Source: Mytilus edulis (lineage: Eukaryota). From it: 64,000 nt of DNA. Location: the NCBI RefSeq assembly GCF_963676685.1, contig NC_092346.1, positions 70,804,001-70,868,000 on the forward strand, read 5' to 3'. The translations under genes were made by a program, and so were the position numbers. Position 1 is the first letter of the stretch. Every line of letters starts with the position of its first letter. Under the pieces are notes generated by a model. That model saw nothing but the letters and a program-made list of their open reading frames with translations. It did not search any database and was not told the DNA's origin. Positions 53,716-53,981 of the stretch are shown here, piece by piece.

Positions 53716-53981
53716 TTAATAAAATTAACGGTACCAATTTTTCTTGCACCAGATGCGCATTTCGACAATACATGTCTCTTCAGTGATGCTCGTGGCCAAA
53801 ATATTTGCAATCCAAAGTATATATAAAAGATGAAGAGCTATAATCCAAAAGATCCAAAAAGTATAGCCAAATCCGTGAAAGGAATCAGAGCTTTGCATGA
53901 GGGAGATACATTCCTTAATTTATAATAATTTCTTATATTTTGTAACAGCAAATTTTAATAACACAATAAATCCGTATTTTC
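53716..53981 (-). mobile_element. Retrozyme-like repeat, family 2, nested in the Harbinger element
   Basis: Contains an intact hammerhead; 3' end matches 14838-14885. Confidence 0.8.
53746..53789 (-). ncRNA. Intact minimal type I hammerhead ribozyme, family 2
   Basis: GCATCA-CTGAAGA-GACA tgtat TGTC-GAA-ATGCGCAT-C-TGGTGC; AUC cleavage at 53752; palindromic stem III. Confidence 0.9.

What the first reader, a model, noticed from the sequence alone, without database searches (positions are those of the whole stretch)
53746..53789. Two hammerhead families differ by compensatory changes in all three stems
Seen, family 1 versus family 2: stem I GCGUCA/UGGCGU vs GCAUCA/UGGUGC; stem II GUCU/AGAC vs GACA/UGUC; stem III palindrome ACGCGCGU vs AUGCGCAU; cleavage triplet GUC vs AUC. 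Core bases and lengths are unchanged (44 nt each). This covariation is internal evidence of selection on RNA structure. Inference: different palindromes would restrict dimeric cleavage to same-family partners.
Basis: seen in the sequence. Interest (0 to 1): 0.7.

Follow-up and report, generated by a model that had tools for sequence, protein, structure and literature searches.

The report
Mussel retrozyme hammerheads keep dimer palindromes
This is one clipped copy of a known, very common mussel repeat carrying a predicted self-cutting RNA; the paired letter changes between its families are real, and five families in the genome each keep a different perfect palindrome, so two neighbouring copies likely pair up to cut, while a selected 'family-only' code is not shown.

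Summary
The 44 bases are a type I hammerhead on the minus strand, inside a 5'-truncated solo copy (53717-53983) of a 350-bp Mytilus non-LTR retrozyme, in an intron of a KCNK12/13-like gene. The covariation is real: 9 stem substitutions against family 1 keep all 14 pairs (four two-sided, one one-sided). It is one lineage contrast, four changes are CpG-type, N7 also differs, and the triplet change is the stem III change counted twice. Two hammerhead families in M. galloprovincialis, and covarying families with palindromic loop 3, are already in print. New here: the genome holds five amplified palindromes (ACGCGCGU, AUGCGCAU, AAGCGCUU, AUCCGGAU, AUCUAGAU). Two changes hit inner pairs that only a second molecule can form, which points to selection for dimer pairing. 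Heterodimers are predicted weaker, through stems I and III, but no mixed array was seen, so specificity is likely a by-product. The scan noted the two-family covariation before in another genome.

The parts
53746..53789 (-). Family 2 type I hammerhead motif, all stems intact
   Evidence: an identical motif in L025 scores 31.2 bits, E 6.4e-6, model 1-45 of 45 against Rfam RF00163
53784..53789 (-). Stem I, 5' strand (GCAUCA)
   Evidence: sequence
53777..53783 (-). Core CUGAAGA (N7 = A; U in family 1)
53764..53776 (-). Stem-loop II (GACA, 5-nt loop, UGUC)
53753..53760 (-). Stem III palindrome AUGCGCAU, predicted dimer interface
53751..53752 (-). Predicted cleavage site, 3' of C17 (53752) in AUC
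   Evidence: hammerhead consensus (established knowledge); cleavage not shown
53746..53751 (-). Stem I, 3' strand (UGGUGC)
   Evidence: sequence
53717..53983 (-). 5'-truncated solo family 2 retrozyme copy, 95.5% to a 350-bp array unit, ending about 34 nt past the cleavage site; no target-site duplication found
22731..22774 (-). Family 1 hammerhead, all stems intact (element 22694-22826)
43661..43704 (-). Family 1 hammerhead with G-U in place of G10.1-C11.1 (element about 43650-43838)
9141..9184 (-). Family 1 hammerhead with a stem II mismatch (element 9105-9353)
5065..5108 (+). Family 1b hammerhead with a stem II mismatch (element about 4839-5152)
29332..29375 (-). Decayed family 1 hammerhead, core broken
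61724..61767 (-). Decayed family 1 hammerhead, core broken
14836..14884 (+). Family 2 3' fragment: palindrome, stem I 3' strand and tail only
16979..64000 (-). Intron (about 48 kb, running about 1,010 bases past the window end) of a KCNK12/13-like two-pore potassium channel gene; the family 2 motif is in the sense of the pre-mRNA
   Evidence: exon junction inferred from open frames and GT/AG

Best explanation
The motif is a type I hammerhead in a truncated copy of a Mytilus non-LTR retrozyme, and its stems were likely kept by selection on the propagating RNA, with the palindrome likely kept so that two neighbouring units of a multimeric transcript pair and cut as a double hammerhead. Shown: 350-bp tandem units with one motif each, thousands of copies, five amplified palindromes, family-pure arrays, RNA reads across the unit, fixed 3' ends past the cut site with variable 5' ends. 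Inferred: array transcripts fold into double hammerheads (stems I and III between units, stem II within), release unit-length RNA that is ligated to circles, and a borrowed Penelope-type reverse transcriptase copies circles or multimers into new arrays. Only lineages that still cut are copied, so fixed differences are compensatory while inserted copies decay at random. A mutation in a template appears in every unit of its array, so only a self-complementary stem III stays self-compatible; families drift to different palindromes and become mutually poor partners as a by-product. The solo copy here has no partner in cis and is likely inert or weakly active.
For: Exact cores: 12,705 family 1 and 4,237 family 2, with 350-360 bp spacing. 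Further amplified palindromes: AUCCGGAU 652, AUCUAGAU 201, AAGCGCUU in a 351-bp family whose body marker has 310 matches. One-step forms between CCGG and CUAG total 73 (926 minus 652 minus 201), against about 2 double changes expected if independent (arithmetic), and CUAG travels with its own loop II. All three variable stem III pairs change on both sides; 98.2% of 224 cells pair. The double hammerhead is the minimum-energy dimer for families 1, 2 and 3; the monomer fold has probability under 0.001 in the isolated 44-mer. 82 of 86 neighbouring pairs share a family and the other 4 are not mixed arrays. 3' ends: 32 of 33 family 2 terminal copies end +27 to +42, 53 of 57 family 1 copies +17 to +49, so the template spanned the cut site. 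Papers: PMC7229834, PMC4209133, PMC8557442.
Against: PMC7229834 reports that one cloned genomic M. galloprovincialis repeat self-cleaves at about 0.1 per minute and its abstract says invertebrate motifs cleave efficiently while amphibian ones need dimers, so dimers may help rather than be required. The inner-pair evidence rests on two lineage changes, one at a CpG. Three of my searches were aimed at two-sided changes. RNA reads show no pile-up of ends at the cut site and cannot show circles. The family 4 homodimer is not the minimum-energy fold. Energy models ignore tertiary contacts. No autonomous partner was identified.
Confidence: 0.75

Rival explanations
1. The motifs cut as monomers with a 2-bp stem III and a 4-nt loop; the palindromic loop is ancestry plus mirrored CpG mutation, not a selected dimer interface.
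For: Monomer self-cleavage reported for a mussel clone (PMC7229834). Four of 9 family 1/2 stem changes are CpG transitions; CCGG to CUAG is also at a CpG. GUAC is the commonest inner double change among decayed family 1 copies listed.
Against: GCGC to CCGG needs two transversions. CUAG is amplified (201) above its one-step forms (73), whereas inner double changes in families 1/2 (154 matches) are heterogeneous and not amplified in the 100 listed. The five commonest stem III 8-mers among motifs with intact stem I are all palindromes (50, 46, 27, 18, 16; best non-palindrome 3; sample enriched by targeted searches).
Confidence: 0.14
2. The palindromes diverged under selection for family-specific partner choice, preventing cross-cleavage between co-expressed families.
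For: All 10 heterodimers are predicted 4.6 or more kcal/mol weaker than the weaker homodimer and carry 1 to 9 mismatches. Families 2 and 3 are expressed in the same runs. No family 2 stem II with family 1 palindrome exists (0 matches).
Against: No mixed array was seen, so partners are supplied in cis. Families 1, 2 and 5 share the inner GCGC. Stems that play no part between molecules (stem II, two body hairpins) diverge just as much, as drift with compensation predicts.
Confidence: 0.08
3. This particular copy is kept to cut the potassium-channel pre-mRNA in its intron.
For: It lies in the sense of the host transcript, as do four family 1 copies in the same intron.
Against: It is a young (95.5%), truncated solo copy of a family with thousands of members; three of the four family 1 copies are damaged; the nearest intact motif is 31 kb away and of another family.
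Confidence: 0.03

Closest known systems
Mytilus galloprovincialis non-LTR retrozymes (Cervera and de la Pena 2020, PMC7229834; seen: parts 2 and 4 of 6, section 14, passages; supplement unreadable)
   Same: [quoted passage not shown] Families 1 and 2 are likely those two.
   Different: I could not compare sequences (Suppl. Fig. S4 unreadable). The passages read name two families of 350-390 bp and treat invertebrate motifs as monomer-competent; here there are five palindrome types, and units of about 525-590 bp.
Canonical metazoan type I hammerheads with palindromic loop 3 and Penelope-associated minimal hammerheads (Cervera and de la Pena 2014, PMC4209133; seen: part 1 of 4 and passages)
   Same: [quoted passage not shown]
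   Different: Families 1-4 are canonical, not minimal, and were not found in the pLTR of a coding element; the passages read give no inner-pair covariation among retrozyme lineages.
Double hammerheads of newt satellite 2, axolotl retrozymes and Penelope elements (Forster 1988 and Lunse 2017: reference titles only; axolotl passage in PMC7229834; review passage in PMC6765202)
   Same: Cleavage as dimers through a palindromic stem III.
   Different: Those have little or no monomer stem III; the mussel motif has an 8-nt palindrome that allows a weak monomer. Lunse 2017 was not held and may already show palindrome covariation.
Rfam RF00163 Hammerhead_1
   Same: Full-length match; the printed consensus stem III is ACGCGCGU, the family 1 palindrome.
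   Different: 31.2 bits, below the gathering score of 34, so the default scan of the window found nothing.
Penelope-like elements as mobilisers (PMC8557442 passages; bioRxiv 10.64898/2026.07.22.740005 abstract and passages)
   Same: 30-40 bp tail, 5' truncation, inverted neighbours, and (TA)n targeting by Naiads match the footprints seen here.
   Different: No coding partner was tied to these families here; the preprint's homology evidence is from Xenopus.

Membership tests
Type I hammerhead ribozyme | Core CUGANGA, GAAA and NUH with three stems, open at stem I | tested here: met
Type I hammerhead ribozyme | G10.1-C11.1 and A15.1-U16.1 pairs | tested here: met
   invariant in 16 of 16 haplotypes of families 1-4; family 5 departs at stem II
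Type I hammerhead ribozyme | Rfam RF00163 gathering score (34 bits) | tested here: not met
   31.2 bits, E 6.4e-6, full model length; none at gathering in the window
Type I hammerhead ribozyme | Site-specific self-cleavage | not testable with these tools
   no end pile-up at the site in four RNA runs; fragment libraries may not show it
Metazoan non-LTR retrozyme | Tandem units of 150-450 bp, one type I hammerhead each | tested here: met
   families 1, 2, 5: mostly 340-367 bp; families 3/4 are 525-592 bp, above the range; the window copy itself is a solo fragment
Metazoan non-LTR retrozyme | Low GC and non-coding | tested here: met
   GC 37-38% and 33%; no frame of 100 aa over the window copy
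Metazoan non-LTR retrozyme | No LTR, PBS or PPT | not tested
   no dedicated search
Metazoan non-LTR retrozyme | Target-site duplications longer than 4 bp when present | tested here: inconclusive
   1 clear 15-bp duplication among 16 solo family 2 copies; none at the window copy
Metazoan non-LTR retrozyme | Expressed as RNA | tested here: met
   805-2,617 reads per run on a family 2 unit, 494-2,848 on a family 3 unit, strand-biased in three of four runs; family level, not this copy
Metazoan non-LTR retrozyme | Circular monomeric RNA | not testable with these tools
   reads that return to the unit start fit arrays as well as circles
M. galloprovincialis two-family retrozymes | Sequence identity with Suppl. 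Fig. S4 or GenBank MN642551-MN642576 | not testable with these tools
   supplement unreadable
Penelope minimal hammerhead | Helix III absent or minimal, helix II 7-8 bp, extra base after A9, located in pLTRs of an RT element | tested here: not met
   families 1-4 have 4-bp helix II, no extra base, 8-nt palindrome; RT and GIY-YIG fragments in the loci are not framed by the motif

The most novel reading that the evidence does not exclude
Mussel retrozymes have evolved at least five mutually orthogonal double hammerheads; the palindrome is a selected dimer switch that lets multimers cut while sparing monomeric circles, and keeps co-expressed families from cutting each other. The ribozyme also moves as a module between unrelated bodies (family 2 to the 545-bp family 3).
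Probability: 0.2. Interest if true: 0.55.

Novelty: new member of a known kind. Interest (0 to 1): 0.3.

Why it matters
For the finding as given, little: covarying hammerhead families with palindromic loop 3, and two mussel families, are in print. The added value is a natural series of five palindromes in one genome. It gives comparative evidence that an invertebrate retrozyme described as monomer-competent is still selected to dimerise, which bears on the open question of how retrozyme circles avoid cutting themselves. It also supplies a ready set of homo- and heterodimer pairs for a direct test, and possibly orthogonal ribozyme pairs for circular-RNA tools.

Tried and rejected
Rfam at gathering threshold found nothing in the window. 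A first scan timed out. A search for stem III with purine at position 2 (39 matches) found no new family because it fixed the family 1/2 flanks; family 5 was missed that way and found later, so further families may exist. Its one recurrent hit, AAGCGUUU (15 copies), shares long flanks and has broken stems: a passenger, not a lineage. Inner double changes in families 1/2 are decay. The single family 1 to family 2 neighbour is two independent insertions. Body homology of family 3 with families 1/2 was rejected (local scores 39 and 26 against shuffle means 31 and 33). The earlier notes' claim that the body hairpin opens Naiad elements was not confirmed: in my loci it occurred only in retrozyme-like context, and following one variant led to family 5, not a Naiad; no full Naiad was examined. 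RNA reads gave no ends at the cut site. A literature search for hammerhead heterodimer specificity (15 of 34 listed) gave nothing relevant; some searches were the other searches. R-scape was not available; the shuffle control ignores relatedness, and its two pair-count measures were not beyond shuffles (92 and 218 of 500).

Full report
Observation. Family 1 is complete at 22731-22774(-); copies at 43661, 9141 and 5065 each have a stem II defect and those at 29332 and 61724 are decayed. Twelve of 44 positions differ between families: nine in stems, two in loop II, one at core N7. All 14 pairs are kept, four by two-sided and one by a one-sided change. Random placement of nine substitutions keeps all pairs in about 1e-4 to 2e-3 of trials for transition shares of 1/3 to 0.7, and in 1,515 of 600,000 when the four CpG transitions are granted. 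So it exceeds chance, but it is a single contrast between two lineages. The GUC/AUC difference is the stem III change counted again. Rfam RF00163 matches the family 2 motif over its full length at 31.2 bits, below the gathering score of 34.

Setting. The neighbouring potassium-channel exon is 99% identical to a Mytilus KCNK12-like protein. Exon 1 lies just beyond the window and exon 2 at 16119-16978 on the minus strand, so the motif sits in sense in an intron of about 48 kb (junction inferred). Exact cores number 4,237 (family 2) and 12,705 (family 1) in 1.37 Gb, many spaced 350-360 bp. Array units are 350 and 359 nt, 37-38% GC, and align over their whole length (252 of 342). The window copy is a 267-bp, 5'-truncated solo piece. 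This matches the non-LTR retrozymes of M. galloprovincialis, reported as about 5,000 type I hammerheads in two families within 350-390 bp repeats, expressed as circles, with a cloned genomic repeat cutting at about 0.1 per minute (PMC7229834). Its supplement, which shows the sequences, could not be read, so identity with families 1 and 2 is likely, not shown. PMC4209133 describes helix III of metazoan type I motifs as 1-2 bp with a palindromic loop that works in dimers, and reports genome-wide families full of compensatory changes.

Where selection acts. Copies picked by their flanks carry scattered changes in core and stems (100 listed of 1,910 and of 8,180). By eye, 93 of the 100 family 2 copies keep the palindrome and no non-palindromic family 1 variant exceeds about 5 of 100, mostly CpG transitions. 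Among 170 de-duplicated motifs (of 308 hits) the commonly shared variants fall in loop II. The exception, a 15-copy variant with broken stems, shares long flanks and was duplicated passively. Covariation also appears outside the ribozyme: a GGAC hairpin and a UUCG hairpin change on both sides among families 2, 1a and 1b (20 of 36 units aligned). I infer that selection acts on the RNAs that propagate, not on inserted copies.

More families. RNA reads laid on a family 2 unit revealed a third motif with palindrome AUCCGGAU. It has 652 genomic matches in units of 525-592 bp whose body is unrelated to families 1/2. A sublineage with AUCUAGAU has 201 matches, mostly with its own loop II; the two one-step forms total 73. 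A fifth family, 351 bp and 73-77% like families 1/2, has AAGCGCUU and a recoded stem I. So pair 2 of stem III is C-G, U-A or A-U, pair 3 G-C or C-G, pair 4 C-G or U-A. Pair 4 cannot form in a single strand, and pair 3 would close a 2-nt loop; their covariation therefore points to pairing between molecules. The family 1/2 contrast alone says nothing on this, since both have GCGC. Limits: two inner changes only, one at a CpG, and searches were aimed at two-sided changes. On 16 haplotypes of families 1-4 seen at two or more places, decayed ones included, 98.2% of cells pair and 7 of 14 pairs change on both sides; slid controls pair 15-45%; two of five shuffle measures are not exceeded.

Dimers and specificity. 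The double hammerhead is the minimum-energy dimer for families 1-3 (-29.5, -27.3, -24.3 kcal/mol) but not family 4 (-20.8), and the monomer fold has probability under 0.001 in the isolated motif. All ten heterodimers are weaker and carry 1-9 mismatches; family 1/2 has one in stem III and one in stem I (-13.4). Of 86 neighbouring pairs within 620 bp (several per array, so not independent), 82 share a family, three are family 4 with a decayed family 4 palindrome, and one is two separate insertions. No family 2 stem II with a family 1 palindrome exists. Discrimination is thus predicted, but partners arrive in cis and stem II diverges as much as stem III; drift with compensation suffices.

Mobilisation. 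Terminal copies end just past the cut site: 32 of 33 family 2 copies at +27 to +42 and 53 of 57 family 1 copies at +17 to +49, with 5' ends spread widely (132 of 170 motifs used). Family 5 ends likewise; families 3/4 end near +370, often in (TA)n. The template therefore spanned the cut site, as a circle or uncut multimer would. A 30-40 bp tail, inverted truncated neighbours and (TA)n targets are Penelope-type marks (PMC8557442), and a 2026 preprint argues that animal retrozymes derive from such elements. I did not identify the partner. One of 16 solo copies has a clear 15-bp duplication.

Expression. Four raw RNA runs from two studies cover both units; in three the reads favour one strand, strongly for family 3 (for example 403 against 21), read as sense on the usual library convention. 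Few reads are 99% alike, so they come from many copies. Reads cross the cut site without a pile-up of ends; circles and arrays cannot be told apart here.

Verdict. A real feature, a likely member of a described family, with covariation of a described kind. The addition is three further palindrome lineages and the inner-pair evidence for dimer selection. Lunse 2017 could not be read and may hold similar covariation. Earlier scan notes report the two-family covariation in another genome and a Naiad link that I did not confirm.

Noticed in passing
L290 and other loci L271-L295 (351-bp family 5): The hammerhead has an odd stem II (A, GG, UAAAU, CC, A): either A-A in place of G10.1-C11.1 or extra A residues on both sides, yet it occurs in arrays of ten or more units.
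   Followed up: partly
L185:1538-2084, L218:2073-2606: Families 3/4 share most of the family 2 hammerhead but have an unrelated ~545-bp body, a different fixed end (about +370) and (TA)n targets: possible ribozyme module exchange and a different helper.
   Followed up: partly
L185:2084: In two RNA runs most family 3 reads crossing the cut site have AUA (187 and 328 reads) while about 17 of 100 listed genomic copies do; one strong locus or slower cutting could explain it.
   Followed up: no
L025:1574-1655 and equivalents: A structured domain just after the fixed 3' end is more conserved among families 1, 2 and 5 than the hammerhead; candidate signal for the reverse transcriptase. Earlier notes link it to Naiad elements; not confirmed here.
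   Followed up: partly
window 22731, 29332, 43661, 53746, 61724: All five near-full-length motifs in the potassium-channel intron are in the sense of the pre-mRNA; a weak fragment at 59837-59919 is opposite. Too few to be significant.
   Followed up: no
window 54369-54716, 51154-51420, 41548-41995, 33769-36091: Long inverted repeats (arms 126-217 nt, 83-95%), likely non-autonomous DNA transposons.
   Followed up: no
window 42335-43108 (+): 257-aa open frame without a Pfam match; looks like the C-terminal end of a non-LTR retrotransposon protein (recalled resemblance).
   Followed up: partly
L038/L039; L027:2270-2330: Inverted neighbouring copies, including a family 1 piece inverted against a family 2 array end.
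   Followed up: no
L001:1778-2551, L160:2186-2998, L163:3865-4878, L240:2262-3035: Fragments of Penelope-type RT or GIY-YIG frames near retrozyme copies.
   Followed up: partly
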